Positions 23,407-36,935 of a DNA stretch of 47,259 nucleotides are shown piece by piece (the first letter of the stretch is position 1; the number at the start of each line of letters is the position of its first letter). Origin of the DNA: Candidatus Polarisedimenticolia bacterium. Its GTDB lineage: Bacteria; Acidobacteriota; Polarisedimenticolia; Gp22-AA2. The DNA lies in NCBI GenBank assembly GCA_041580375.1, contig JBFGDZ010000002.1, positions 1 through 47,259 on the forward strand, given 5' to 3'. The notes beneath the pieces are model-generated. The model did not search any database, was not told where the DNA came from, and saw only the letters and a list, made by a program, of their open reading frames with translations. The translations under genes and the position numbers were made by a program.

Positions 23407-23600
23407 CGTGACCTCCTCATCGGGGATCTCCCGACGGCGGGCGGACGCGCCCGCCGGGATTTCGATCGGTGTTTCGGGAGGCACACAGGTTAGGAGTTTT
23501 TCGGCTCCCTGTCCACGGGGATCCGGCCGGCCCGCGACACATTCCGCCACCTTTTTGCTTCCCCTCATCATGCATTCGGTGTATTTTGCGTCACTCCGAC

Positions 23601-26288
23601 ATGTCGCTCGCTGCCGGTACCCAACTCGGCCCCTACGAGATCCTCGCTCCGGTCGGAGCGGGGGGTATGGGGGAGGTCTATAGCGCCCGGGACACCCGGC
23701 TCGACCGGACCGTGGCGATCAAGGTCCTGCCCGAGCACCTGTCCTCCGATCCCGACCTCAGGCAGCGCCTCGAGCGCGAGGCGCGCGCGATCTCCGGCCT
23801 CAACCATCCGCACATCTGCACCCTGCACGACATCGGCCACCAGGACGGCGTCGACTATCTCGTCATGGAGCATCTCGTGGGCGAGCCGCTGTCGGAGCGC
23901 CTCGCGCGGGGGGCTCTGCCGCCGCACGAGCTGCTGCGTCACGCGATCGAGATCGCCGACGCGCTCGACAAGGCGCACCGCCAGGGCGTCATCCATCGCG
24001 ACCTGAAACCGGCCAACATCATGCTGACCAGGTCCGGAGCGAAACTCCTCGACTTCGGCCTGGCCAAGAGCGCCGCGCCGGCCGCGGCGTCGGATCTGAG
24101 CGCGTCGCCGACGGCCACGAGCCCTCTGACCGCCGAGGGGACGATCGTGGGCACCTTCCAGTACATGGCGCCCGAGCAGATCGAGGGAAAGCCCGCCGAC
24201 GCGCGCAGCGACATCTTCGCGTTCGGCGCCGTGCTGTACGAGATGGCGACCGGCCGGCGTGCGTTCGAGGGAAGGACCCAGGCGAGCCTGATCGCGGCGA
24301 TCCTGAAGGAGGAGCCGCGCCCGATCCCGTCGGTGGCTCCGCTGACGCCGCCCGCCCTGCAGCGCCTCGTGGCGACCTGCTTGGCGAAGGACCCCGAGGA
24401 GAGGCGCCAGACGATGCACGATGTCCTGCTGGAGCTGCGCTGGATCGCCGAGGCGGGATCGCAGGCGGGCGTGCCCGTCCCGGTCGCCGCGCGCCGGCGG
24501 TCGCGCGAGCGGCTGGCGTGGGGCGCGGCCGGGGTCGCCGTCGCGCTGCTCGCCGCCGTCGCCGCGGCGTGGCTGATGACGCGGCCCGGCCCTCCGCGGG
24601 AGGCCGTCGTCCGATCGTTTCTCCTGCCTCCGGTCGATGCCGCGGCCGAGTTCGCCCTGGACGCCGTCGATTCCGGATCGCTGACCGTCTCGCCCGACGG
24701 GCGGTACGTGACGTTCGCGGCGCGGACCTCCGACGGCCGGAAGCAGCTCTGGCTGCGCCCGCTCGACGCGCTCGAGTCCCGTCCGCTGCCCGGGACGGAT
24801 GACGGGGAGCACCCCTTCTGGTCCCCGGACAGCCGGTTCATCGCGTTCTTCTCGGGCGGCAAGCTCAGGAAGATCGATCTGGCGGGATCCCCCGCCCTGG
24901 CGCTGGCCGACGCGACCAGCGGCCGCAGCGGCGCCTGGAACAAGGACGGGGTCATCCTGTTCTCGCCGACGACGCTCGACCCGATCCACCGCGTGCCTGC
25001 GGGGGGCGGCGAGGCGACGCCGGTGACCGAGATCGATCGGTCCCGCAACGAGACGACGCACCGGTGGGCGACCTTCCTGCCGGACGGCCGGCATTTCCTC
25101 TTCATGGCGGGCGGGCACGGCACGCAGTCCGACAGCGAGACGCACGCCGTCTTCGTCGCCGATCTCGAGTCGGGAGAGAAGAAACTGCTGGTGCGCGCCC
25201 GCTCCAACGCGGCGTACGCCGACGGGCACCTGCTCTACGTGCGGGGCCACGTCCTGCTGGCCCATCCGTTCGACCCGAATCGGCTCGAGTTCACGGGCGA
25301 TCCGATCCCGATCGCACAGGGGATCCAGTACGAACCGCCCTTCTTCCGCGCGGTGTTCTCGGTCTCGAACAACGGGGTCCTCGTCTACCGCTCGGGCGAG
25401 GTCGACAGCGACTCGACGCTCGTCTGGATCGATCGCGGCGGGCGTGAGATCGGATCGATCGGCGAGCCGGCGGGCTACAACGACATCAGTCTCTCCGGCG
25501 ACCAGACCCGGGCCGCCGTCTCGATCGTGGATCCCGACACGGGAACGAGCGACATCTGGCTCTACGATCTGAAGCGCGAGGTCGCCACGCGCTTCACCTT
25601 CGGCAAGCTGAGCGAGTTTCAGCCGATCTGGTCGCCCGACGGCGAGCGGATCGTGTACAGCGCGATCACGAAGATCTATCCCGATCTGTACGTCAAGCCC
25701 GCGAGCGGGGCCGGCCGCGAGGAGCCGCTCGTGGTCTCCGACTCCGCGAAGGTCGCGAGCGACTGGTCGCCCGACGGCCGGGTCATCCTGTACATGCATT
25801 TCGATCCGAAGGGAGATTCGGAGAGAGACGTCTACGCGCTGACCGTGGGGGCGGACGGGCCGCCGGTCCCCTATCTCGATACCGAGTTCGACGAGTACGA
25901 GGCGTCATTCTCCCCCGACGGGCGGTGGGTCGTTTACACGTCGGAGGAGTCCGGCAGCGCCGAGATCTACGTGACGTCCTTCCCGAAGGCGGCCGGCAAG
26001 TGGCAGATCTCCAAGGGGGGCGGCTCGAGCGCTCTGTGGAACGCGAACGGCCGGGAGATCCTGTACGCAGGACCCGGAGGAGGCCGGCTGATGTCGGTCA
26101 GCGTGCGGATCCTGGAGGACCGCATCGACATCGGCTCTCCCGTCGAGCTGTTCAGGAACGGCCGGATCCGGGAAGGGGACGTGACCCGCGACGGCCAAAG
26201 GGTGCTCGTCGCTCTCGGCGCCGAGGAGCAGGACAACTTCCCCGTCACGCTCACCACGCACTGGCCCGCCGCGCTGGCGAAGAAGTAG
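23601..26288 (+). CDS. Hanks-type Ser/Thr protein kinase with TM segment and C-terminal TolB/PD40-like beta-propeller
   Basis: GAGGMGEVY, VAIK, HRDLKPAN, DFGLAK, YMAPEQ, SDIFAFG; TM helix; repeated (W/F)SPDG motifs. Confidence 0.95.
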   Translation: MSLAAGTQLGPYEILAPVGAGGMGEVYSARDTRLDRTVAIKVLPEHLSSDPDLRQRLEREARAISGLNHPHICTLHDIGHQDGVDYLVMEHLVGEPLSERLARGALPPHELLRHAIEIADALDKAHRQGVIHRDLKPANIMLTRSGAKLLDFGLAKSAAPAAASDLSASPTATSPLTAEGTIVGTFQYMAPEQIEGKPADARSDIFAFGAVLYEMATGRRAFEGRTQASLIAAILKEEPRPIPSVAPLTPPALQRLVATCLAKDPEERRQTMHDVLLELRWIAEAGSQAGVPVPVAARRRSRERLAWGAAGVAVALLAAVAAAWLMTRPGPPREAVVRSFLLPPVDAAAEFALDAVDSGSLTVSPDGRYVTFAARTSDGRKQLWLRPLDALESRPLPGTDDGEHPFWSPDSRFIAFFSGGKLRKIDLAGSPALALADATSGRSGAWNKDGVILFSPTTLDPIHRVPAGGGEATPVTEIDRSRNETTHRWATFLPDGRHFLFMAGGHGTQSDSETHAVFVADLESGEKKLLVRARSNAAYADGHLLYVRGHVLLAHPFDPNRLEFTGDPIPIAQGIQYEPPFFRAVFSVSNNGVLVYRSGEVDSDSTLVWIDRGGREIGSIGEPAGYNDISLSGDQTRAAVSIVDPDTGTSDIWLYDLKREVATRFTFGKLSEFQPIWSPDGERIVYSAITKIYPDLYVKPASGAGREEPLVVSDSAKVASDWSPDGRVILYMHFDPKGDSERDVYALTVGADGPPVPYLDTEFDEYEASFSPDGRWVVYTSEESGSAEIYVTSFPKAAGKWQISKGGGSSALWNANGREILYAGPGGGRLMSVSVRILEDRIDIGSPVELFRNGRIREGDVTRDGQRVLVALGAEEQDNFPVTLTTHWPAALAKK

Positions 26289-26440: not shown

Positions 26441-28252
26441 ATGATGACGATCCGAGTGTTCCAACGCATCGGTGTGCCCGCGGCGCTCTGCCTGACGGTT
26501 CTGGCGGCCGGTTTCCAATTGCAGGCGTGCGGTGGCGGGGACGGGGGCGCCGGCGCGCGCCTCGAGAAGCGCGGCGACCGGGATCTGGCGCGCCGGCTGG
26601 ACGAGTACATGTCGCGCCTCGTCGCGTTCGACGTCTCGGGGGCGCTCGTCGTCGCGAAGGACGGCGAGGTCGTCCTGGCCCGGGGATACGGTCTGGCGGA
26701 TCGCGAGAACGAAGTGCCGTTCTCGCTGCAGACCGTCGTCACGGTCGGATCGATCACCAAGCAGTTCACGGCGGCCGCCATCCTGAAGCTGCAGGAGATG
26801 GGAAGGCTGAGCGTCGAGGACAGGATCGATCGTTTCTTTCCCGACGCCCCCGAGGACAAGAGAAGGATCACGCTCCACCACCTGCTGACGCACACGGCCG
26901 GCTTCGAGGCCGCCCTGGGCGACGACTTCGACGAGACCGCCACCCGCGATCGGGTCGTGGAGCAGGCCCTGGCCTCCGATCTGCTGCACGAGCCGGGCGG
27001 GCCGTATGTGTACTCGAACGTCGGGTACAGCCTGCTGGGCGCGATCGTCGAGATCGCCTCGGGACAGCCGTACGAGGTGTTCCTGAAGCAGCACCTCTTC
27101 GATCCCGCGGGCATGACCCGCACGGGGTATCGCCTGGCCGACTGGTCGGGGCTCGCCGTCGCGCGCGGATACGACGGGAAGGAGCCCTGGGGCACGGTCC
27201 TCGAGCGCCCCTGGATGGAGGACGGGCCGTACTGGCACCTGCGGGCGAACGGCGGGATCCACTCCACCCTCGAGGACATGTACCGGTGGCACCTGGCCCT
27301 TCTGGACGACCGCGTGCTCTCGGCGGCGTCGCGGGAGGCGATGTTCACGCCGTTCGCGGACGAGGGCGGCGGCGAGTCGCACTACGGGTACGGCTGGAGC
27401 ATCGCGCGCACGCCGCGCGGCACGACCCGCATCGCGCACAACGGCGGCAACGGCATCTTCTTCGCCGATGTCCTGCGCTTCGTGGACGAGGGCGCCGTCG
27501 TCCTCTTCGCCACCAACACGGCGCGGAGCGGCTCGGAACGGGTGAGCACGATCATCCCCGCCATCCTCTTCGGGGAGGACTATCCGGTGCCGCCGAAGGT
27601 CGCCCGCATCGACCCGGCGGGCGCCCGCCGGCTCGCGGGGTCATACGCGCTGCCGTCCGGGGACGTCGTCGAGATCGCCGCCGGCGAGAACGGCCGGCTC
27701 CGCGCCTCGGCGCGGGGCGAGGCGTTCTGCCTGATCAGCAGCGGCGAGGCGCACCGGCGCCCGGATCTCGATCGCCTGGCGGCGCGCACCGCCGGCATCC
27801 TGGGTCAGGCGATCCGGGGCACGATCGATCCGATCGAGACGGCGCTGGACAGCCGGATGCCGCGCGCGGAGCTGGAGCAGATCTTCAAGGAGCGCCGGGC
27901 CACCTGGACCGGAGAGCACGGAGAATACCGGTCCACGTCGCCGGTCGCGGCGGTGCCGGAGACGGACGACGAGGTCGTCGTCCTGGCGCGCTCCGATTTC
28001 GCGCGGGGCGCGATCCACCACCGCGTCGTCTGGGCCGGGGGGCGGATCGCCGGGGCCCGGCTGACCTTCGATCCCGCCATCGTCTTCTATCCCGAGTCGG
28101 AAAACGAGTTCTCCTCGTTCGATCTGGACCGACCGACGATCGTCCGAATCAGCTTCGAGCCCGCGGCGGACGGTGACGGCGTGCGGCTCGTCGTGCACGG
28201 GCCCTCCGGCGCGACGCGGCTGGCGAGATCGGACCGGGCCGGTCCGGGATAG
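26441..28252 (+). CDS. serine hydrolase, beta-lactamase class C/PBP-like family, lipoprotein with C-terminal extension
   Basis: SxxK (GSITKQF), LLTHTAG, YxN (YSNVGY), HNGG; LQAC lipobox-like site. Confidence 0.9.
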   Translation: MMTIRVFQRIGVPAALCLTVLAAGFQLQACGGGDGGAGARLEKRGDRDLARRLDEYMSRLVAFDVSGALVVAKDGEVVLARGYGLADRENEVPFSLQTVVTVGSITKQFTAAAILKLQEMGRLSVEDRIDRFFPDAPEDKRRITLHHLLTHTAGFEAALGDDFDETATRDRVVEQALASDLLHEPGGPYVYSNVGYSLLGAIVEIASGQPYEVFLKQHLFDPAGMTRTGYRLADWSGLAVARGYDGKEPWGTVLERPWMEDGPYWHLRANGGIHSTLEDMYRWHLALLDDRVLSAASREAMFTPFADEGGGESHYGYGWSIARTPRGTTRIAHNGGNGIFFADVLRFVDEGAVVLFATNTARSGSERVSTIIPAILFGEDYPVPPKVARIDPAGARRLAGSYALPSGDVVEIAAGENGRLRASARGEAFCLISSGEAHRRPDLDRLAARTAGILGQAIRGTIDPIETALDSRMPRAELEQIFKERRATWTGEHGEYRSTSPVAAVPETDDEVVVLARSDFARGAIHHRVVWAGGRIAGARLTFDPAIVFYPESENEFSSFDLDRPTIVRISFEPAADGDGVRLVVHGPSGATRLARSDRAGPG

Positions 28253-28353: not shown

Positions 28354-30288
28354 ATGATGCCGATCCGCACGCCCGGAGGAACGAACGCGCCGGGACGATT
28401 CGCGGCGGCGCTCGCCTGCGCGGCGCTCCTCGCGGCCTGTCCGGGCGCCGGTCCGGAACGCCGGGACGCCCCGGCGCGGGTCGATTCCGCCGGAGCGGCG
28501 CACGACATCCATTCGTTCGGCCGGCCCGGGGACGTGCGGGTCACGCACGCCGACATCGACTGGACGATCGACTTCGACCGCCGCGAGATCGCGGGCAGCG
28601 TCACCTGGACGTTCGAGCGGGCGCCCGGAGGGGAGGGCGAGCCGCTCATCCTCGACACGAGAGGCCTCTCCGTCGAGGAGGTCACGGCGGAGGACGGCAC
28701 GGCGCTGGACCACGCCCTTGCGCACGAGCACCCGGCCCTGGGACGGGCCCTCGGGATCATGGCGCCGCCCGGGGAGAACAGGGTCGTCATCCGATACCGC
28801 ACGAGCCCCGGGGCCGGCGCGCTGCAGTGGCTGACTCCGGAGCAGACCGCGGGCGGCGGCAAGCCGTACCTGTTCTCCCAGGCCCAGTCGATCCTCGCGC
28901 GCACGATGCTGCCGTGCCAGGACTCGCCGGGCGTGCGCATCACGTATCGGGCCCGCGTCCGGGTTCCGCGGGGTCTCCGGGCGGTCATGGCGGCCCGCAT
29001 GGAGCCCGGCCCGGAGCCCTCCGGCGCGCTCGATTCGTACCTGTTCGAGATGCCGCAGCCGATCCCGTCCTACCTCATCGCCCTGGCCGTCGGCGACATC
29101 GTGTTCAAAGAGATCGGCCCCCGATCGGGCGTGTTCGCCGAGCCGTCCGTGATCGAGCGCGCGGCCTGGGAGTTCGCCGACACGGAGGCGATGATCGACG
29201 CGACGGAGACGATGTACGGGCCGTACCGCTGGGAGCGCTACGACATCCTCGTCCTGCCGCCGAGCTTCCCGTTCGGAGGCATGGAGAACCCCCGCCTGAC
29301 CTTCGCGACCCCGACTGTCCTGGCGGGCGATCGCTCGTTGACCGGCCTGATCGCCCACGAGCTCGCCCACTCCTGGTCCGGCAATCTCGTCACCAACGCC
29401 ACCTGGTCCGAATTCTGGATGAACGAGGGCTTCACCGTCTATCTCGAGCGCCGGATCCTCGAGGCCGTCTACGGCAAAAAGAGAGCCGACATGGTGTCGG
29501 TCCTCGGCTGGCAGAACCTCCTGATCGACATGAAGGAGATGGACGCGGGCGACACGGCGCTGCACAACGTCTCGCTTCAGGGCCGCGATCCGGACGATGC
29601 CTTCAGCCGCGTGCCCTACGAGAAGGGCTCCCTGTTCCTGCGGCTGCTCGAGGGCGAGGTGGGGCGCGAGCGTCTCGACGCGTTCCTGAGACGCTGGTTC
29701 GATGAGAACGCCTTTCAGAGCCGCACGACTCAGGAGTTCGAAGCGGCGCTCCGCGAGCGGCTCTTCGCGGGCGATCCCTCCCGGCCCGGTGCTCTGCGCG
29801 TCGATGAGTGGCTGTACGGAACGGGCCTGCCGGACAACGCGCCCGAGCCGGAGAGCGACGCCTTCGACCTCGCCGAGGCGGAGGCACGGGCGTTCCTCGC
29901 GGGTGAGAAACCGGCCTCCGCCCTGCCGGTGAAGGACTGGTCCACTCAGGAGTGGCAGCACTTCATCCGCTCTCTTCCCGACGATCTCGACTCCCGTCGC
30001 ATGGGCGCGCTCGACCAGGCCTGGTCCCTGAGCGAGAGCGGCAACGCCGAGATCCTGTTCGAGTGGCTCAAGAAGTCGATCCGGGCCGGATACGCGCCCG
30101 CGCTTCCCCCGCTGGAGAAGTTCCTCATCGAGCAGGGACGCCGCAAGTATCTCAAGCCGCTCTACACGGAGCTGGCGAAGACCGAGGCGGGCAGGCGCCG
30201 CGCGCTCGACATCTACCGGCGCGCCCGTTCCCTCTACCACCCGGTCTCCGCGAACACCATCGACCAGGTTCTCGATTACGGAGGGTAG
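28354..30288 (+). CDS. M1 family aminopeptidase (leukotriene A4 hydrolase-like), lipoprotein
   Basis: GGMEN, HELAHSW..NEG, PYEKG, LTA4H-type C-terminal domain (NAEILFEW, GRRKYLKPLY); LAAC lipobox. Confidence 0.95.
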   Translation: MMPIRTPGGTNAPGRFAAALACAALLAACPGAGPERRDAPARVDSAGAAHDIHSFGRPGDVRVTHADIDWTIDFDRREIAGSVTWTFERAPGGEGEPLILDTRGLSVEEVTAEDGTALDHALAHEHPALGRALGIMAPPGENRVVIRYRTSPGAGALQWLTPEQTAGGGKPYLFSQAQSILARTMLPCQDSPGVRITYRARVRVPRGLRAVMAARMEPGPEPSGALDSYLFEMPQPIPSYLIALAVGDIVFKEIGPRSGVFAEPSVIERAAWEFADTEAMIDATETMYGPYRWERYDILVLPPSFPFGGMENPRLTFATPTVLAGDRSLTGLIAHELAHSWSGNLVTNATWSEFWMNEGFTVYLERRILEAVYGKKRADMVSVLGWQNLLIDMKEMDAGDTALHNVSLQGRDPDDAFSRVPYEKGSLFLRLLEGEVGRERLDAFLRRWFDENAFQSRTTQEFEAALRERLFAGDPSRPGALRVDEWLYGTGLPDNAPEPESDAFDLAEAEARAFLAGEKPASALPVKDWSTQEWQHFIRSLPDDLDSRRMGALDQAWSLSESGNAEILFEWLKKSIRAGYAPALPPLEKFLIEQGRRKYLKPLYTELAKTEAGRRRALDIYRRARSLYHPVSANTIDQVLDYGG

Positions 30289-30400
30289 GGACCCGTCGTG
30301 CGGCAGCGCCGGGTGGAGCGCGCGGGGCACGGATTTCCGGCCGTGCGATGACCGGATCTGGTAATCTACGCAGACCGTTTCAAGGGAGGATCGTCATCCG

Positions 30401-31462
30401 ATGTCGAGCAAAAAACGGAGTCTCATCGGCTTCGCTCTCGTGAGCGCGCTTCTCCTGGGCGTGGCCTGCGGGGCCGCCTCTCAGGACGCCTCGAAGAAGA
30501 AGTCGGGCGGGAAGGAGGGGGCCGCCGGAGGCGGCGTCGCGGCCCGCGTCGGCGACAGAACCATCACGCTCGCCGAGGTGGACGAGAAGGCGATGACCGC
30601 CAACATCAACGCGTACCAGGCTCTGTACGACGCGCGCCGCGCCGCTCTGGATCAGATCATCTCCGACCTGCTGCTGGAGAGGGAGGCTGCGGAGAAGGGC
30701 GTCACCAAGGAGAAGCTCCTCGAGGAGGCGCTCAACACGGAGAGCCTGGCGGTGACCGACGCGGAAGTCGAGTCCTTCTTCAACGAGAACCAGGGCATGA
30801 TGGGGGGGCGGACCCTCGATCAGCTGCGGGGCCAGATCCATCAGTACCTGGCGAATCAGAAGGTCGGCGAGGCGCGGCAGGCTTTCTTCGACGTCCTCAA
30901 GAAAAAGGCCGGCGTGAAGATCGCGCTCGATCCGCCGCGCGCTCCGGTCCAGATCGCGGCGAACGACCCGGTGAAGGGTCCCGCGGACGCCCGGATCACG
31001 ATCGTCGAGTTCTCCGACTTCCAATGACCGTACTGCGCGAGGGTCGGTCCGACCCTCTCCAAGATCTTCGAGACCTACCCGAACCAGGTCCGGCTCGTCT
31101 ACCGCGACTACCCGCTGCCGAATCACAGCCAGGCGCTGCCCGCGGCCGAAGCGGCGCAGTGCGCCCACGCCCAGGGTAAGTTCTGGGAGTATCACGACGC
31201 GCTGTTCGAGAATCAGCGCTCCCTGACGGCGGAGAACTACCAGAAGTTCGCCGCCGACCTCGGTCTGGACACGAAGAAGTTCAAGTCCTGCATGGACTCC
31301 GCCACACACCGCGCCGGAGTCCAGGAGGATCACCGCCAGGGCGTGGAGGTCGGCGTCACCGGAACCCCCGCCTTCTTCATCAACGGCCGCTTCCTCTCCG
31401 GGGCCCAGCCGTTCGAGGCGTTCAAGGCGATCATCGACGAGGAGCTGACGCTCGAGCGCTAG
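30401..31462 (+). CDS. exported DsbA/thioredoxin-fold oxidoreductase with SurA-N-like domain; probable selenoprotein (TGA 31025-31027 = Sec, UPYC)
   Basis: The ORF track stops at ...IVEFSDFQ*, but the frame continues PYCARVGPTL...RDYPL..H..A..AAEAAQCA..QGKFWEYHDALF...GVTGTPAFFING..LSGAQPFEAFKAIIDEEL to TAG 31460-62 (353 aa). A SECIS-like hairpin follows the TGA. Confidence 0.88.
31039..31057 (+). promoter_or_regulatory. putative bacterial SECIS element
   Basis: GAGGGTC-GGTCC-GACCCTC perfect stem starting 11 nt after the in-frame TGA, with G/GU at the start of the apical loop. Confidence 0.75.
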
Positions 31463-31482
31463 ATCCGCGCGCGCCGCGCGGC

Positions 31483-32301
31483 TCAGCCGCGGCTTTTGCG
31501 GAGCACGTGCGTCAGCGAGGCGTCCGGCCGTCCTCCCCCGGTCATGTCCCAGCCACCGCCGACCGACAGCTGGGTGCCGCTGATGGCGGAGGATTCGCGC
31601 GACGCCAGGAACGCCACGGCACGTGCGATCTCGTCGGGCCGGACGAGCCGCCCGATCGGGGAGCGCGCCGTCATGACCCTCTTGTACAGGGCGCCGAGGT
31701 GGGCGTTGTCGGTGAGCCCCGGCCCGACCGCGTTCACCGTGATCCCTCTCCGGATCTCCTCCAGCGCGAGAGCCCGGGTGAGGGCCAGCAGCGCGAGCTT
31801 GGCGACGTGATAGGCGGCGGCGCCGGGCGCCGGGGCCTGAGTCTCGACCACGGACGCGGTGATGTTGACGATCCGGCCCCAGCGCTTCCTGCGCATCTCC
31901 GGAACGGCCTCGCGCGCGCACAGGAACGCGGCGTGCAGGTTGGAATCGACGATCCCCTTCCACTCCTCGAACCGCATCGACGCGATCGGCCCCTCGGCGT
32001 ACTCGCCGACGTTGTTGACCAGCACGGAAACGGGACCGAGCGCGCGGCGGACGGACGCGAACAGGCGACGCACCTGGTCCGGCCGCGTCACGTCGGCGCG
32101 CACGGCGATCGCCCGCCGACCGCGCCTCTTCACTTCGGCCAGCGTTCGTTCCGCTCCGCGCCGGTGGCCCCGGTAGGCGAACCCGACGTCGAACCCGGCG
32201 CCGGCCAGCGCGATCGAGACGGCGCGGCCGACGCCGCGTGAGCCGCCCGTGACGAGCGCGACGCGGACGGCCGCGCGGGACGGTGTTCTTCTTCTGGGCA
32301 T
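31483..32301 (-). CDS. short-chain dehydrogenase/reductase (FabG-like)
   Basis: TGGSRGVG, NNVG, YHVAK (YxxxK), VNAVGPG. Confidence 0.9.
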   Translation of the reverse strand: MPRRRTPSRAAVRVALVTGGSRGVGRAVSIALAGAGFDVGFAYRGHRRGAERTLAEVKRRGRRAIAVRADVTRPDQVRRLFASVRRALGPVSVLVNNVGEYAEGPIASMRFEEWKGIVDSNLHAAFLCAREAVPEMRRKRWGRIVNITASVVETQAPAPGAAAYHVAKLALLALTRALALEEIRRGITVNAVGPGLTDNAHLGALYKRVMTARSPIGRLVRPDEIARAVAFLASRESSAISGTQLSVGGGWDMTGGGRPDASLTHVLRKSRG

Positions 32302-33183: not shown

Positions 33184-33945
33184 ATGCGTCTGAAAGGCAA
33201 GGTCGCGCTGATCACGGGAGGCACGCTGGGCATGGGGCGGGCGACGGCGATCCTGTTCGCCCGGGAGGGGGCCGCGGTCGCCGTCACGGCGCGCAACGAG
33301 GGCCCCGGGCGCGAGGTCGTGAGCGCGATCGAGAAGGAGGGCGGCCGGGCGATCTTCGTCCGATCCGACGTGCGCGTCGCGGCGGACTGCCGGCGCGTTG
33401 TCGAGGCGACCATCGAGGCGTTCGGCCGGATCGATATCCTGTTCAACAACGCCGGGGTCTGGTTCCCGAACACGGTCCCGGACTGCAGCGAGGAGGAGTG
33501 GGACCTGACCATCGACGTGAATCTGAAGGGCACCTTCCTGATGTCCAAGTACGCGCTGCCCGGGATGATCGCGCGCGGCAACGGGGTGATCATCAACAAC
33601 GGATCGGGGTGGGGGCTCGTCGGCGGAAACGAGGCGGCCTCCTACTGCGCGTCGAAGGGGGGCGTCGTCCTGCTCACGAAGGCGATGGCGGTCGACCACG
33701 GCCGGCAAGGGATCCGCGTCAACTGCATCTGCCCGGGCGACGTGGACACGCCGATGCTCCGCGGCGACGCCGTCCAGCGCGGACAGACCTGGGACGAGTA
33801 CATGAAGACCGCGACGAGCCGTCCGATCGCCCGCATCGGCCAGCCCGAGGAGATCGCGCGGGCGGCGCTGTTCCTGGCTTCGGACGACTCCTCGTACGTC
33901 ACCGGCGCGGTCCTGGCCGTCGACGGCGGCGGCACGGCGGACTGA
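33184..33945 (+). CDS. short-chain dehydrogenase/reductase
   Basis: TGGTLGMG, NNAG, YCASK, VNCICPG, VDGG; AGGAG SD. Confidence 0.93.
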   Translation: MRLKGKVALITGGTLGMGRATAILFAREGAAVAVTARNEGPGREVVSAIEKEGGRAIFVRSDVRVAADCRRVVEATIEAFGRIDILFNNAGVWFPNTVPDCSEEEWDLTIDVNLKGTFLMSKYALPGMIARGNGVIINNGSGWGLVGGNEAASYCASKGGVVLLTKAMAVDHGRQGIRVNCICPGDVDTPMLRGDAVQRGQTWDEYMKTATSRPIARIGQPEEIARAALFLASDDSSYVTGAVLAVDGGGTAD

Positions 33946-34028
33946 TCGAGGCGGGCTCCTCGATTGACGCGCGGCTCCCCCCTCCGCTACAGTCCCGCCC
34001 ATCGACTTCGAGGGAAGGAGGACGATCC

Positions 34029-36935
34029 GTGAGAGGACCCGCGGCGCTGTTCGTTTGCGCGGCGAGCTTCACCGTGGCGCTCGCCGCGACACCCGATCCC
34101 TACGCTCCCGACGTGCCCGAGCCCGGCTCGGTGGAGGCGATCCGGGAGGCGACCACCGAGGATCGGTTCCTGAACCCCTGGGTGGCGTACGTACCGGATT
34201 CCGCGAACGTGCCCTCGCCGACCGACTATCTGGGCCACATCGCCGGCGCGCCGGGCGAGCTGAGCCGCACGACGCAGATCTACGGATACATGCGCGCGCT
34301 GGCGGAGGCCTCGCCGCGGGTGCGGGTGGAGACGGTCGGCGAGACGGAGGAGGGGCGCGAGATCATGATCGTCATCGTCTCGGACGATGGCACGATCGCT
34401 GATCTCGATCGCTATCGCGGCGCCACGGCGTCGCTGTCCGATCCGCGGGGATGCGACGAGTCGTGCCTGGAGAACACGCTCGGGTGGGCGAAGCCGATCT
34501 ATTTCCTCAACGGGGGCCTGCACTCGACCGAGACCGGAAGCCCGGAGATGCTGATGGAGCTGGCCTACCGGCTGGCGGTCTCGGAGCGCAGCGAGATCCG
34601 GCAGATCCGCGAGCGGGTCATCGTCCTGATGAATCCCGTGTCCGAGCCGGACGGGCGCGATCGCACGGTCGACTGGTACTACCGCTACCTCAAGGGGAAG
34701 ACCGACTACGATCACCGGCCGCGCCGCTCTCCCCCCTACTGGGGCAAGTACGTCTTCCACGACAACAACCGCGACAGCCACCAGCGTGCCCTGGCGCTCA
34801 CGCGCGCGGACCAGGACGCGTTTCACCGGTGGCATCCTCAGGTCGTGCACGACCTGCACGAGTCGATCCCGCTGCTCTGCATCTGGACGGGAACGGGGCC
34901 TTACAACAAGTACATGGACCCGATCCTGGTCGGCGAGTGGCACCAGATGGCGTTCCACGAGGTGCGCGCGATGTCGTCGCTCGGCATGCCGGGCGTCTGG
35001 ACGTGGGCCTTCGGCGAGGGCTGGGGCCACATGTTTCTCGACTCGTGGGCCGTGAACCACAACGCCATCGGGCGCGGCTACGAGACGTTCGGGATCACGA
35101 GCGCGGACACGATGGACGTGCGGCTCGATCTGCGCTGGCAGGAGTACGCCGGCCAGCCGGTCACCCGGCGCACCTGGTACCGGCCCTGGCCGCCGCCGCG
35201 CACCTTCCGGTGGTCGCTGCGCAACAACACGAACTACATGCAGACCGGCGTGCTGTCGATCCTGCAGTACACGGCGCTGCACCATCGCGACATGCTGCGC
35301 GACTTCTGGCGCAAGGGGAAACGGGCCGTCGAGCGCGGCGCCGCGGAGCCCCCGTACGCGTTCGTCATCCCCGAGGCGCAGGACGATCGGCGCCGCATGG
35401 CGAGGCTCGTCAACCTGCTCGGAGAGCACGGCATCGAGGTGTCGCGCGCGACGAAGCCGTTCGATGTGGACGGGCGGAAGCTCCCGCGCGGGACCTACGT
35501 CGTCCGGATGGATCAGCCGTACCGGGGTTACGCGTGGGATCTGCTCGAGGCCCAGGACTACCCGGCCGACGAGGCTCCGTACAGCCCGTACGACGACGTC
35601 ACGTGGGCGCTGCCGGTCGCGTTCGGCGTCGAGGTCCTGCGGGCGGACGACCCGGCCGTGCGCGCCGTTCCGGTGGAACCGGTGAAGTCCCCTGTCGCCT
35701 ACGAGGGGACGGTCTCGGGACGCGGGCCGATCTACCTCCTGCGCGACACGGGCCAGGAGGCGCTGCACGCCGCGCGCCACCGGCTGTCGCGATACGAGGT
35801 CGCGGCGGCGGAGAAGCCGTTCGATCATGGGGGGGTGACCTACCCGGCCGGCTCCTGGATCGTGAGCGGCGGAGAGGGTCTGCGGGAAGCCCTCGCGTCC
35901 GTCGCGAAGGAGCTGTCGCTCGATTTCGCGTCGGCGTCGAAGCGGCCGTCCGTCCCGGCCCACCCGATCGATCCACCGCGCCTGGCTCTCTTCCATACCT
36001 GGCGCGACACCGAGAGCGCGGGGTGGGTGCGCATGCTGTTCGACCAGGAGGGCATCCCGTACGACTACATCCTGGACGATCAGGTCAAGCGCGGCGGGCT
36101 CGAGAAACGCTACGACGTCATCCTCTACCCGCACACCTACGAATCGCTGAAGAGCGTCATCCAGGGCATCGACACGCGCTTCGGTCCGATGCCGTACACG
36201 AAGACACCGGAGTTCCCGAGCCACGGAACGCCGGCCTCCTCGCCCGACATCACGGGCGGCCTCGGCTACCGCGGCCTGGAGAATCTCCGCGCGTTCGTCG
36301 AGCGCGGCGGCGTCCTAATCGCGCTGGGCGGGGCGAGCACGGTGCCCCTCGACGGAGGCTTCGTGCGCGACGTGCGGAGCGCCAGCACCTCGAAACTCTA
36401 CACGCCGGGCACCGAGATCCGCGCCCGGTTCGCGAAGCCCGATCACCCGCTCGCCTACGGCTATCCGGAGATCACCTCCGTCTTCCGCGGGGGCGAGCCG
36501 CTGTACGAAGTCGGCGAGGCGGATCAGCACCTGGTCGTGATGCGCTGGGGCACGGAGCCGCCCCGCTGGGACGACCCGCGCGCCGAGAAGGACGGTCCCT
36601 GGCGGAGCCTCGACGCGGAGGGGGACGGGATCGACGACGAGAGCGGCGACGACGAGAAGGGAGGCGCGCCGGACAAGGGCGATGCGGAGGAGCCGTCCGT
36701 GACGGACGATGAAGAGGAGGACGCGCTCGTCGTCTCCGGCGGCATGACCGGGGAGAGCGAGATCCAGGGGAAGCCGGCGATCTTCGACATCCCGGTCGGC
36801 GAGGGCCGGATCGTCGCCTTCAACTTCGACCCGATCCACCGGCTCATGAGCCGGTCCGATTTCCGCCTGGTCTGGAACGCGCTGCTGAACTGGAACGACC
36901 TGCCCCCCGTCCGGGTCGAAGGCTCCGATCGGTGA
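34029..36935 (+). CDS. M14 family zinc carboxypeptidase with C-terminal GATase-like domain, secreted
   Basis: GTG 34029 with AGGAGG SD; signal peptide; HSTE (HxxE), PDG, DNNRD, DLHE; acidic insert near the C-terminus. Confidence 0.88.
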   Translation: MRGPAALFVCAASFTVALAATPDPYAPDVPEPGSVEAIREATTEDRFLNPWVAYVPDSANVPSPTDYLGHIAGAPGELSRTTQIYGYMRALAEASPRVRVETVGETEEGREIMIVIVSDDGTIADLDRYRGATASLSDPRGCDESCLENTLGWAKPIYFLNGGLHSTETGSPEMLMELAYRLAVSERSEIRQIRERVIVLMNPVSEPDGRDRTVDWYYRYLKGKTDYDHRPRRSPPYWGKYVFHDNNRDSHQRALALTRADQDAFHRWHPQVVHDLHESIPLLCIWTGTGPYNKYMDPILVGEWHQMAFHEVRAMSSLGMPGVWTWAFGEGWGHMFLDSWAVNHNAIGRGYETFGITSADTMDVRLDLRWQEYAGQPVTRRTWYRPWPPPRTFRWSLRNNTNYMQTGVLSILQYTALHHRDMLRDFWRKGKRAVERGAAEPPYAFVIPEAQDDRRRMARLVNLLGEHGIEVSRATKPFDVDGRKLPRGTYVVRMDQPYRGYAWDLLEAQDYPADEAPYSPYDDVTWALPVAFGVEVLRADDPAVRAVPVEPVKSPVAYEGTVSGRGPIYLLRDTGQEALHAARHRLSRYEVAAAEKPFDHGGVTYPAGSWIVSGGEGLREALASVAKELSLDFASASKRPSVPAHPIDPPRLALFHTWRDTESAGWVRMLFDQEGIPYDYILDDQVKRGGLEKRYDVILYPHTYESLKSVIQGIDTRFGPMPYTKTPEFPSHGTPASSPDITGGLGYRGLENLRAFVERGGVLIALGGASTVPLDGGFVRDVRSASTSKLYTPGTEIRARFAKPDHPLAYGYPEITSVFRGGEPLYEVGEADQHLVVMRWGTEPPRWDDPRAEKDGPWRSLDAEGDGIDDESGDDEKGGAPDKGDAEEPSVTDDEEEDALVVSGGMTGESEIQGKPAIFDIPVGEGRIVAFNFDPIHRLMSRSDFRLVWNALLNWNDLPPVRVEGSDR

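What the first reader, a model, noticed from the sequence alone, without database searches (positions are those of the whole stretch)
30401..31462. Hidden selenoprotein: exported SurA-N/DsbA-like oxidoreductase with a U-P-Y-C active site
Seen: the ORF appears to end at FSDFQ-TGA (31025-27), exactly where DsbA-family proteins have the first Cys of CPYC. The frame continues for 144 intact codons containing the rest of the fold (PYC, RDYPL, QGKFWEYHD, cis-Pro loop GTPAF, GAQP) with normal codon use and no decay. Established: Sec replaces the attacking Cys in UxxC thioredoxin-fold proteins, and DsbA-like selenoproteins have been reported from bacteria and metagenomes. Inference: a 353-aa selenoenzyme combining a signal peptide, a chaperone-like domain and a Sec-DsbA domain, i.e. 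selenium-dependent extracytoplasmic thiol-disulfide chemistry. Standard pipelines would call it truncated or a pseudogene. Termination at the UGA could also yield a stand-alone 208-aa chaperone-like domain when selenium is scarce.
Basis: partly seen in the sequence, partly recalled or inferred. Interest (0 to 1): 0.85.

Follow-up and report, generated by a model that had tools for sequence, protein, structure and literature searches.

The report
Selenocysteine DsbA-like envelope lipoprotein gene
This gene very probably encodes a real selenium-containing envelope protein that pairs a chaperone-like domain with a disulfide-handling domain; gene callers cut it short at the selenocysteine codon, but selenoproteins of this general kind are already known.

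Summary
An ORF at 30401-31462 (+) has one in-frame TGA (31025-31027) at the first position of a U-P-Y-C motif in a DsbA-like thioredoxin fold.

The selenoprotein reading is strongly supported:
- The genome holds selA, selB, selD (itself with an in-frame TGA) and a tRNA-Sec with anticodon TCA.
- A 7-bp hairpin with loop GGUCC starts 11 nt after the UGA and meets all four published bacterial SECIS constraints.
- This hairpin is conserved at synonymous sites in Sec-bearing homologues. Cys homologues with the same peptide use drifted codons.
- The TGA stands in contigs from two studies.

The protein is a lipoprotein-type precursor with a SurA/PrsA-like chaperone module and a Sec-DsbA domain.

It is not rare. 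The exact TGA+hairpin cassette occurs in at least 118 public genome stretches, mostly Acidobacteriota and Myxococcota. In 27 of 88 cassette copies examined, the SurA-like module lies upstream in frame.

DsbA-like and DsbG-like UxxC selenoproteins have been in print since 2005-2006, so this is a new member of a known kind. The redox role (isomerase/reductase or oxidase) is only inferred. A side result is that Sec looks ancestral in this family, with repeated Sec-to-Cys losses.

The parts
30384..30389 (+). Shine-Dalgarno-like GGGAGG, 11 nt before the ATG
   Evidence: Read directly. No tool test. The simple promoter scan found nothing upstream.
30401..31462 (+). Whole coding sequence: 353 codons including one Sec codon, plus the TAG stop
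   Evidence: Pfam domain match across the TGA. GC3 is 0.89 upstream and 0.92 downstream in this frame. 7 of 8 strain-level differences in contigs are synonymous.
30401..30469 (+). Signal peptide ending in a lipobox-like L-G-V-A-C (Cys23): lipoprotein-type precursor
   Evidence: Read. A Cys preceded by A or G at the same place in most relatives whose N-terminus was recovered. The lipobox rule is recalled; no predictor was run.
30470..30535 (+). Low-complexity Gly/Lys/Ala tether, residues 24-45
   Evidence: pLDDT below 50 for residues 5-43 in the AlphaFold2 model. Length varies in alignment A1.
30536..30925 (+). SurA/PrsA-like helical chaperone module without a PPIase domain, residues about 46-175
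   Evidence: Pfam SurA_N_3 E 2.4e-5, 24.6 bits, below the 27.2 cut-off. SurA_N_3 matches 23 of 30 and SurA_N_2 18 of 30 family members at E<=0.01. Profile A3 matches the leptospiral LIC12922 structure 3nrk (E 8.3e-5, three stretches near its N-terminus, middle and C-terminus) and the C-terminal helix of the HP_0175 PPIase (E 1.8e-4). The model has pLDDT 90.9, but Foldseek is not significant (best E 0.29; top ranks are PrsA/LIC12922-type foldases).
30962..31441 (+). DsbA-like thioredoxin-fold domain, residues 188-347
   Evidence: Thioredoxin_4 E 1.3e-33 and DSBA E 5.5e-26. Foldseek against PDB: Corynebacterium diphtheriae DsbA/TsdA (E 7e-11, 37% identity), Caulobacter and Proteus ScsC, Bacillus BdbD, Wolbachia alpha-DsbA1.
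31025..31027 (+). UGA read as selenocysteine (U209), first residue of U-P-Y-C (31025-31036)
   Evidence: Aligned with an invariant Cys column. TGA sits at the same codon in 26 homologues that I aligned or extracted. No other letter at this place in contigs of 4 runs.
31039..31057 (+). SECIS-type hairpin: stem GAGGGUC/GACCCUC (31039-31045 with 31051-31057), loop GGUCC (31046-31050)
   Evidence: Folds (-14.1 kcal/mol for the 23-nt piece). It meets the four bSECIS constraints quoted in PMC13188914. Synonymous sites are fixed in Sec forms only. 99.4% of cells are paired, and 2 of 7 pairs carry compensatory changes.
31160..31291 (+). Invariant Cys254 (31160-31162) and Cys297 (31289-31291) in the helical insert: probable structural disulfide
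   Evidence: Invariant in 30 of 30 rows. The pairing is an inference. A second disulfide is implied by the title of PDB entry 3f4t, a C97A/C146A mutant of Wolbachia alpha-DsbA1.
31364..31369 (+). Thr322-Pro323 of the G-T-P-A-F loop (cis-proline loop of thioredoxin folds)
   Evidence: T322 and P323 are invariant in 30 of 30 rows. The cis conformation is inferred from family knowledge.

Best explanation
The gene at 30401-31462 is one intact selenoprotein gene.

How the UGA is read: SelB carrying Sec-tRNA(Sec) binds the hairpin at 31039-31057, whose loop starts 18 nt after the UGA, and inserts selenocysteine at codon 209.

The product is a 353-residue precursor with four parts:
- a lipoprotein-type signal peptide (Cys23);
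- a flexible tether;
- a SurA/PrsA-like helical chaperone module with no PPIase domain;
- a DsbA-like thioredoxin domain whose attacking residue is Sec in U-P-Y-C.

Shown here: the frame, the fold family, the Sec/Cys pairing, the SECIS features and their selective conservation, and the Sec machinery.

Inferred: it sits in the cell envelope. There the chaperone module holds unfolded envelope proteins while the Sec-Cys pair exchanges disulfides with them.

Most likely role (about 0.5): a disulfide isomerase/reductase-type foldase kept reduced through a DsbD/CcdA-type membrane protein, comparable to ScsC or DsbC, where an N-terminal module is added to a catalytic thioredoxin fold. A primary oxidase role is the main alternative (about 0.3).

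The confidence given below is for 'genuine Sec-decoded gene with this architecture', not for the redox direction.
For: (1) Sec machinery in the same assembly:
- selA, 557 bits.
- selB, 330 bits.
- selD, 363 bits, with one in-frame TGA in GG-U-AAK.
- tRNA-Sec, 75.5 bits in Rfam, called SeC with anticodon tca by ARAGORN.

(2) The SECIS hairpin has a 7-bp stem and a 5-nt loop beginning GG, lies 18 nt from the UGA, and folds at -14.1 kcal/mol. These meet the published constraints: loop 3-9 nt, stem 4-16 bp, G in the first two loop positions, spacing 16-37 nt, energy <= -7.5 (passage of PMC13188914). The genome's own selD has a loop starting GGU 17 nt after its UGA.

(3) Selective conservation:
- In 22 Sec homologues the Arg codon at +5 is AGG in 22 of 22. 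It is AGG in 0 of the 27 Cys forms (of 30) that have Arg there.
- Gly +7 is GGT in 20 of 20.
- Cys forms that keep the peptide R-V-G-P-(T/A)-(L/I) (L022, L075, L076, L093) have drifted synonymous sites.
- On 24 Sec forms, 99.4% of cells pair. There are G-C to A-U changes on both sides in G106, G116 and G048, and one G-U wobble. 0 of 500 shuffles reach the covariation score.

(4) Sec/Cys pairing at an invariant column. Among the 119 genomes of the class, 7 of 103 listed full-length matches carry one TGA, and these include the window's closest relatives at 50-54% identity.

(5) Contigs of X1 (2353 nt) and X5 (1278 nt, another study) cover 31025-31027 with no difference. 3 of 3 differences downstream of the TGA are synonymous.

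(6) TGA is also an ordinary stop in this genome: the Cys paralogue on C16 ends in TGA.

(7) Function hints:
- DsbB was found in 0 of 31 genomes searched (G000 plus 30 relatives).
- VKOR was found in 13 of those 31, but not in G000 or its congener.
- A DsbD_TM protein is present in G000.
- ScsC is among the nearest solved folds.
Against: - There is no direct evidence of expression or of selenium in the protein. No RNA run was listed.
- Single-sequence folding is not unusual for this composition: z -0.54 for 81 nt and -0.93 for 48 nt, with 55 and 32 of 200 shuffles folding as well. The 81-nt minimum-energy fold does not even choose the local hairpin.
- Rfam has no match here (3 chance-level hits, E 1.7-7.7).
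- Covariation rests on only 3 cells because the hairpin is nearly invariant.
- The genome is a 262-contig assembly, 84% complete with 2.6% contamination. The Sec genes lie on other contigs, so their link to this contig depends on binning.
- The protein does not reach the cut-off of the one curated selenoprotein model it hits (NF041057, 134.6 against 190 bits).
- The SurA-like call is below Pfam's cut-off for this protein, and the fold search of that domain is not significant.
- Nothing here tests the redox direction. Failing to find DsbB/VKOR in an 84% complete genome is weak evidence.
Confidence: 0.88

Rival explanations
1. The gene is a primary disulfide oxidase (DsbA-type) rather than an isomerase/reductase. 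The Sec-Cys selenenylsulfide oxidises newly exported proteins and is recharged by a VKOR-like or other quinone-linked partner.
For: The nearest solved folds include oxidases: Corynebacterium DsbA, Bacillus BdbD, Wolbachia alpha-DsbA1. VKOR is present in 13 of the 31 genomes searched, G000 plus 30 relatives. G000 is only 84% complete, so a partner may simply be unassembled.
Against: No VKOR or DsbB was found in G000 or its congener G001. G000 already has a Cys paralogue of the same architecture on C16 that could fill the oxidase role. From general chemistry (recalled, not tested), a selenenylsulfide is a weaker oxidant than a disulfide.
Confidence: 0.3
2. The UGA mostly terminates. The main product is the 208-residue chaperone-like lipoprotein, and the full-length selenoprotein is a minor, selenium-dependent product (dual output).
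For: Gene callers produce exactly this 208-aa product, and it carries the SurA-like Pfam hit (P0047). It is general knowledge (recalled) that bacterial Sec insertion competes with release factor 2.
Against: The downstream 144 codons are under purifying selection: GC3 is 0.92, 3 of 3 strain differences are synonymous, and T322, P323, C212, C254 and C297 are invariant. The truncated product would end inside the first strand of the thioredoxin fold. No test of product ratio was possible.
Confidence: 0.08
3. The gene is a pseudogene: a TGC-to-TGA nonsense mutation inactivated an ordinary Cys-type gene.
For: A single base separates TGA from TGC. Most full-length relatives in the class have Cys (96 of 103 listed matches).
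Against: - The TGA is shared by the closest relatives in other families of the class (G104, G105, G106, G116, G050, G035) and by at least 118 public stretches.
- It is always followed by the same hairpin, with rare codons fixed.
- There is no decay downstream.
- Complete Sec machinery is present.
Confidence: 0.02
4. The TGA is a sequencing or assembly error.
For: None found.
Against: Contigs from four runs list no other letter at 31025-31027. Long pieces from two studies span the site (X1 record 1, X5 record 15). X1 may be the source sample and so not independent, but X5 is a different study.
Confidence: 0.01

Closest known systems
DsbA-like selenoproteins with a UxxC motif ('DsbA-like protein form 1', PF01323), reported from the Sargasso Sea metagenome and from Anaeromyxobacter, Desulfovibrio and Desulfotomaculum genomes
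   Same: The Pfam DSBA match is over the cut-off (92 against 25.6 bits). Sec is the first residue of UxxC. A SECIS hairpin with G in the apical loop lies just downstream. (Passages seen in PMC1088965, PMC1794560 and PMC13188914.)
   Different: The passages I saw do not mention a SurA-like N-terminal module or a lipoprotein signal. The Sargasso set was assigned to COG2761. I could not compare sequences, because supplements are closed and the example accessions cannot be fetched here.
Rcas_1661 family thioredoxin-like (seleno)lipoprotein, NCBIfam NF041057, listed as 'DsbG-like protein' (UxxC) in PMC13188914
   Same: It is the best NCBIfam hit (E 4.1e-39), a UxxC thioredoxin-like domain in a lipoprotein.
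   Different: The score is 134.6 bits against a cut-off of 190, and only model positions 83-246 of 247 align. The N-terminal part of that family is replaced here by the SurA-like module. The G050 long Sec form, the G018 short Sec form and the window genome's Cys paralogue on C16 score 111-129 bits, also below the cut-off.
ScsC and DsbC/DsbG-type envelope disulfide isomerases/reductases
   Same: A catalytic thioredoxin or DsbA-like fold is preceded by a separate N-terminal module. ScsC structures are among the top fold matches (7rgv E 1.3e-10, 5idr, 4xvw). A DsbD-type membrane protein is present in the genome.
   Different: Their N-terminal modules are oligomerisation domains unrelated to SurA, and they use Cys. 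NCBIfam DsbC matches only residues 299-348 at 20.5 bits against a cut-off of 215.
SurA / PrsA / HP_0175 / LIC12922 family of envelope foldases
   Same: The N-terminal 130 residues match SurA_N profiles in 23 of 30 family members. The family profile aligns to the N-terminal, middle and C-terminal helices of LIC12922 and to the C-terminal helix of HP_0175.
   Different: No parvulin PPIase domain is present (no such Pfam hit); a DsbA-like domain follows instead. The fold search of the isolated module is not significant.

Membership tests
Bacterial selenoprotein gene (SelB/SECIS-dependent UGA decoding) | In-frame UGA aligned with a conserved Cys of homologues, and TGA-bearing homologues in other organisms | tested here: met
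   Invariant Cys column C209. 7 of 103 listed full-length matches in the class carry the TGA. 47 listed matches carry one TGA (3 full-length, 44 DsbA-domain only; 35 further matches were not listed).
Bacterial selenoprotein gene (SelB/SECIS-dependent UGA decoding) | bSECIS model: apical loop 3-9 nt, upper stem 4-16 bp, G in the first two loop positions, 16-37 nt between UGA and loop, energy <= -7.5 kcal/mol (PMC13188914) | tested here: met
   Loop GGUCC (5 nt), 7-bp stem, 18 nt spacing, -14.1 kcal/mol. Constraints were read. bSECISearch itself was not available.
Bacterial selenoprotein gene (SelB/SECIS-dependent UGA decoding) | selA, selB, selC (tRNA-Sec) and selD in the genome | tested here: met
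   All four are over their curated cut-offs, and the anticodon is tca. They lie on other contigs of an 84% complete binned assembly.
Bacterial selenoprotein gene (SelB/SECIS-dependent UGA decoding) | Selenium physically present in the polypeptide | not testable with these tools
   Needs 75Se labelling or mass spectrometry.
DsbA-like protein form 1 selenoprotein (PF01323, UxxC) | PF01323 match over the gathering score, with Sec as the first residue of UxxC | tested here: met
   92 bits against 25.6. U-P-Y-C at 209-212.
NF041057 Rcas_1661 family thioredoxin-like (seleno)lipoprotein | Whole-protein score at or above NCBI's cut-off of 190 bits, over the full model | tested here: not met
   134.6 bits, with model positions 83-246 of 247 only. 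The G050 long Sec form, the G018 short Sec form and the window genome's Cys paralogue score 116.8, 111.4 and 128.6 bits.
Classical DsbA oxidase (E. coli type, with DsbB) | Equivalog score and a DsbB partner | tested here: not met
   NF008198 scores 22.5 bits against 279. DsbB was found in 0 of 31 genomes searched, including G000.
SurA-like N-terminal chaperone domain (PF13624 SurA_N_3) | Pfam match at or above the gathering score | tested here: inconclusive
   The window protein scores 24.6 bits against 27.2. 23 of 30 family members match at E<=0.01, best 2.5e-7. The precomputed Pfam list of the truncated product gives PF13624. Foldseek is not significant.
Bacterial lipoprotein | Signal peptide ending in a lipobox with an invariant Cys | not tested
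   L-G-V-A-C23 was read, and a Cys stands at the equivalent place in relatives. No predictor was available, and the rule is recalled.

The most novel reading that the evidence does not exclude
In this DsbA-like superfamily, selenocysteine with one frozen SECIS cassette is the ancestral state. The cassette is 32 nt long, with 26 fixed bases, and is shared between Acidobacteriota and Myxococcota. The many Cys forms, including the common SurA-like+DsbA lipoprotein of the window's own class, would then be repeated Sec-to-Cys losses that leave decaying hairpins behind. This runs against the published view that thiol-oxidoreductase selenoproteins arise by Cys-to-Sec conversion and that Sec-to-Cys replacement in bacteria is rare. 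The SurA-like+Sec-DsbA protein would be a selenium-dependent envelope foldase that works without DsbB.
Probability: 0.4. Interest if true: 0.6.

Novelty: new member of a known kind. Interest (0 to 1): 0.4.

Why it matters
- Annotation. Standard callers report only the 208-residue front half, and the one curated NCBI model nearby does not reach its cut-off. This protein and its many relatives in Acidobacteriota are therefore probably mis-annotated as truncated or split. A family model with the Sec column marked would fix this.
- Biology. It places selenium chemistry in the cell envelope of common soil, sediment and marine bacteria, fused to a chaperone module. That makes a simple Sec-against-Cys comparison possible, because the same genome carries a Cys paralogue of the same architecture.
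- Evolution. The family offers many natural Sec/Cys pairs with intact or decaying SECIS hairpins. One is a near-identical pair in two congeneric genomes (G060 and G041). These are good material for asking when and why bacteria give up selenocysteine.

Tried and rejected
- Rfam scan of 30900-31200 at E<=10: only three chance-level sRNA hits and no SECIS family.
- Single-sequence folds: z-scores of -0.54 and -0.93 are not significant, so thermodynamics alone does not single out the hairpin.
- Promoter/terminator scan of 30200-31600: no promoter-like site, and one terminator-like site on the minus strand inside the gene, within the number expected by chance.
- Fold search of the isolated N-terminal module: no match at E<=0.001. 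The PrsA/LIC12922 ranking is only suggestive.
- Conserved neighbours: the window has an M1 peptidase upstream and a convergent short-chain dehydrogenase downstream. Five other Sec long-form loci have unrelated neighbours (a glycosyltransferase, a methylguanine methyltransferase, a DcuC carrier, an FG-GAP protein, an outer-membrane barrel). So there is no operon partner.
- RNA evidence: no RNA holder was listed.
- Independent expression of the DsbA half: the first in-frame start after the TGA is at 31292, beyond the active site, so I rejected this.
- Alternative genetic code: rejected, because TGA ends the Cys paralogue in the same genome and several homologues.
- Parsimony on the 82-row tree does not by itself give the direction of change: 10 changes if symmetric, at least 14 gains if gains only, at least 13 losses if losses only. 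I chose those rows knowing their Sec/Cys state, so the counts are not an unbiased sample. The two divergent forms with peptide A-R-L-L-P-T-L (G030b, G031) were left out of alignment A4 (24 of 26 Sec forms used).
- Literature: searches found no paper describing a SurA-like+DsbA selenoprotein. For some searches I saw only listings and one set of passages. Supplementary tables of the selenoproteome papers, which may list such genes, were not available.
Full report
**Observation.** The region reads exactly as described. An ATG at 30401, preceded by GGGAGG, opens a frame with a TGA at 31025-31027 and a TAG at 31460-31462. With TGA read as U, the product has 353 residues and contains FSDFQ-U-PYC, RDYPL, QGKFWEYHD, GTPAF and GAQP. 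A single Pfam domain match runs across the TGA (Thioredoxin_4, residues 188-347, E 1.3e-33; DSBA, E 5.5e-26). In-frame GC3 is 0.89 before and 0.92 after the TGA, against 0.63 and 0.42 in the other frames. An open frame alone would mean little in this 69.5% G+C window, where a 643-aa antisense ORF overlaps the gene. The homology and codon pattern carry the argument.

**Sec machinery.** The assembly has 262 contigs and is 84% complete with 2.6% contamination. It contains:
- selA, 557 bits;
- selB, 330 bits;
- selD, 363 bits, with one in-frame TGA that reads GG-U-AAK;
- a tRNA-Sec, 75.5 bits, which ARAGORN calls SeC with anticodon tca.

TGA is also a normal stop here: the Cys paralogue on contig C16 ends in TGA.

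**SECIS.** Eleven nucleotides after the UGA lies a hairpin: stem GAGGGUC/GACCCUC with loop GGUCC, at 31039-31057. It folds at -14.1 kcal/mol as a 23-nt piece. A 2026 review (PMC13188914, passages read) gives the bacterial SECIS model as follows: a 3-9 nt loop, a 4-16 bp stem, G in the first two loop positions, 16-37 nt between UGA and loop, and energy at most -7.5 kcal/mol. All four constraints are met, with 18 nt spacing. The genome's own selD has a loop starting GGU 17 nt after its UGA. Against this:
- Single-sequence z-scores are not significant (-0.54 and -0.93).
- The 81-nt minimum-energy fold prefers another pairing.
- Rfam gives nothing.

**Comparative evidence for the SECIS.**
- In 22 Sec-bearing homologues from 19 genomes, the TGA is in the same codon, and 20 carry the identical 19-nt hairpin.
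- The Arg codon at +5 is AGG in 22 of 22 Sec forms, and in 0 of the 27 Cys forms (of 30) that have Arg there.
- Gly +7 is GGT in 20 of 20 Sec forms.
- Four further Sec long forms add variation that keeps the pairing. G106 and G116 change a G-C pair to A-U on both sides. G105 has a G-U wobble at the cost of a Thr-to-Ile change.
- On 24 Sec forms (the two forms with a different peptide and hairpin left out), 99.4% of cells pair and 2 of 7 pairs carry compensatory changes. 0 of 500 shuffles reach the covariation score, and slid registers pair at 27-55%. The hairpin is nearly invariant, so only 3 cells carry covariation.
- Natural controls are more telling. Cys forms that keep the peptide R-V-G-P-(T/A)-(L/I) (L022 of G048, L075 of G083, L076 of G107, L093 of G041) have drifted at the synonymous sites. 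The nucleotide conservation is therefore tied to the TGA, not to the peptide or to codon bias.

**Reads.** Contigs of four runs list no other letter at 31025-31027. A 2353-nt contig of X1 and a 1278-nt contig of X5 (another study) span the site. X1 may be the source sample. Of 8 single-letter differences in these strain-level contigs, 7 are synonymous, including 3 of 3 downstream of the TGA. Many short foreign contigs pile up on 31000-31057 alone (depth about 2000 in X7, against under 61 in the bins outside 30977-31084). This reflects how conserved the active-site-plus-hairpin stretch is across organisms.

**Distribution.**
- In 61 genomes (G000 plus 60 relatives), all have a DsbA-like match. 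Among the listed matches, 47 carry one TGA: 3 full-length and 44 DsbA-domain only (35 matches were not listed).
- Across the 119 genomes of the class, 91 have a full-length match at E<=1e-58, giving 103 listed matches. Seven of these carry the TGA: the window, G104, G105, G106, G116, G050 and G035. They include the window's nearest relatives at 50-54% identity.
- The window genome also has a Cys paralogue of the same architecture (C16, 47% identity) and a shorter Sec paralogue with the identical cassette (C74).
They are mostly Acidobacteriota and Myxococcota.
- In the 80 loci returned, 27 of 88 cassette copies have the SurA-like module upstream in the same frame. By their titles, 24 of those 27 are Acidobacteria-labelled. 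8 copies were cut at the locus edge.

So this architecture is common, not unique to this genome.

**Evolution.**
- In a tree of 58 DsbA domains, the full-length forms lie on one side of a branch supported at 98/95.
- The Sec long forms and the relic-bearing Cys forms sit in an unresolved base.
- The main Cys clade (23 rows) is nested, with the Sec form of G035 as its sister at 91/88. An 82-row tree agrees.
- Parsimony alone cannot set the direction: 10 changes if symmetric, at least 14 if gains only, at least 13 if losses only. I also chose the rows knowing their state.
- The argument for Sec being ancestral is that the same hairpin stands on both sides of the deepest splits, and that Cys forms nested among Sec forms keep decaying copies of it.
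- The review states that Sec-to-Cys replacement in bacteria is rare and documented mainly for FdhA and SelD. If that holds, this family would be an exception.

**Protein anatomy.**
- Residues 1-23 end in L-G-V-A-C. A Cys preceded by A or G stands at the same place in most relatives. I read this as a lipoprotein signal, using a recalled rule and no predictor.
- Residues 24-45 are a low-confidence tether.
- Residues 46-175 form long helices after a small hairpin (models at pLDDT 86.7 and 90.9).
- SurA_N_3 is just under its cut-off for this protein (24.6 against 27.2 bits) but matches 23 of 30 family members, and SurA_N_2 matches 18 of 30.
- The family profile matches the SurA-like LIC12922 structure in three stretches (near its N-terminus, middle and C-terminus), and the C-terminal helix of the HP_0175 PPIase.
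- This suggests a complete SurA/PrsA-type chaperone module with the PPIase domain absent. Foldseek on the isolated module is not significant.
- The C-terminal domain is closest to Corynebacterium DsbA/TsdA (37% identity), ScsC, BdbD and Wolbachia alpha-DsbA1.
- C212, T322, P323, C254 and C297 are invariant.

**Mechanism.** What is shown is a Sec-decoded gene for an exported two-module protein. What it does is inferred.
- DsbB was not found in any of the 31 genomes searched, G000 included.
- VKOR was found in 13 of those 31, but not in G000 or its congener.
- A DsbD-type membrane protein is present in G000.
- A catalytic DsbA-like domain behind an extra N-terminal module recalls ScsC and DsbC.
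- The review notes the lower pKa and faster kinetics of selenols.

I therefore favour a disulfide isomerase/reductase-type foldase (about 0.5) over a primary oxidase (about 0.3). No neighbour is conserved.

**Comparison with what is known.**
- DsbA-like UxxC selenoproteins were reported in 2005 (PMC1088965) and 2006 (PMC1794560), and are listed in the 2026 review. The review also lists a 'DsbG-like protein' under NCBIfam NF041057.
- This protein meets the loose definition of the first (PF01323 plus UxxC).
- It fails NCBI's cut-off for the second: 134.6 against 190 bits, with the N-terminal third of the model not aligned.
- I saw no mention of a SurA-like fusion in the passages and listings read.

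**Verdict.** The side result on Sec-to-Cys loss is the part most worth following.

Noticed in passing
G000:C232:555-1487 (-), locus L007: The genome's selD is itself a selenoprotein gene, with one in-frame TGA reading GG-U-AAK. A hairpin follows whose loop starts GGU 17 nt after the UGA.
   Followed up: partly
G000:C74:9870-10415 (-), loci L049 and L069: A second Sec-DsbA gene in the same genome has no SurA-like module; a hydrophobic stretch and a helical region lie upstream of the DsbA domain (read by eye). It carries the identical TGA+hairpin cassette. This short form is the commonest Sec form among the relatives.
   Followed up: partly
G000:C16:25649-26683 (-), locus L050: A Cys paralogue of the window's protein (47% identity, same SurA-like+DsbA architecture, C-P-Y-C, no hairpin) lies in the same genome. 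Sec and Cys versions therefore coexist.
   Followed up: partly
L064 (G060) and L093 (G041): Two congeneric genomes carry nearly identical DsbA domains, one with TGA and the intact hairpin, the other with TGC and one changed base in the hairpin loop. This looks like a very recent Sec/Cys switch.
   Followed up: partly
L134, L099, L110, L135, L143, L151, L166 (public Myxococcota, Nitrospirota and Acidobacteria records): Two or three TGA+hairpin cassettes lie about 570-650 nt apart on one strand, and the upstream frame of each later copy ends at the previous TGA. These look like tandem DsbA-domain proteins with several selenocysteines.
   Followed up: no
L065 (G030) and L066 (G031): Two Sec forms with peptide A-R-L-L-P-T-L have a different small hairpin (5-bp stem, loop UUUU) with no G in the loop. 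This does not fit the published bacterial SECIS model.
   Followed up: no
window 31000-31057: In sediment and marine metagenome contigs, depth over this 58-nt stretch is far above the rest of the gene (about 2000 in X7, against under 61 in the bins outside 30977-31084). Short contigs of other organisms match it at 90% or more.
   Followed up: partly
window 23469-26288 (+), 26441-28252 (+), 28354-30288 (+), 31483-32301 (-), 33498-36935 (+): The neighbours are a Ser/Thr kinase with PD40 repeats, a beta-lactamase-fold protein, an M1 peptidase with a leukotriene A4 hydrolase C-terminal domain, a short-chain dehydrogenase and an M14 carboxypeptidase-like protein. Several look like envelope or secreted hydrolases, and none is a redox partner.
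   Followed up: partly
G039:C228:6613-7758 (-): In one relative, a VKOR match lies directly beside a Cys DsbA-like match (coordinates). This is a possible oxidase pair in that genome.
   Followed up: no
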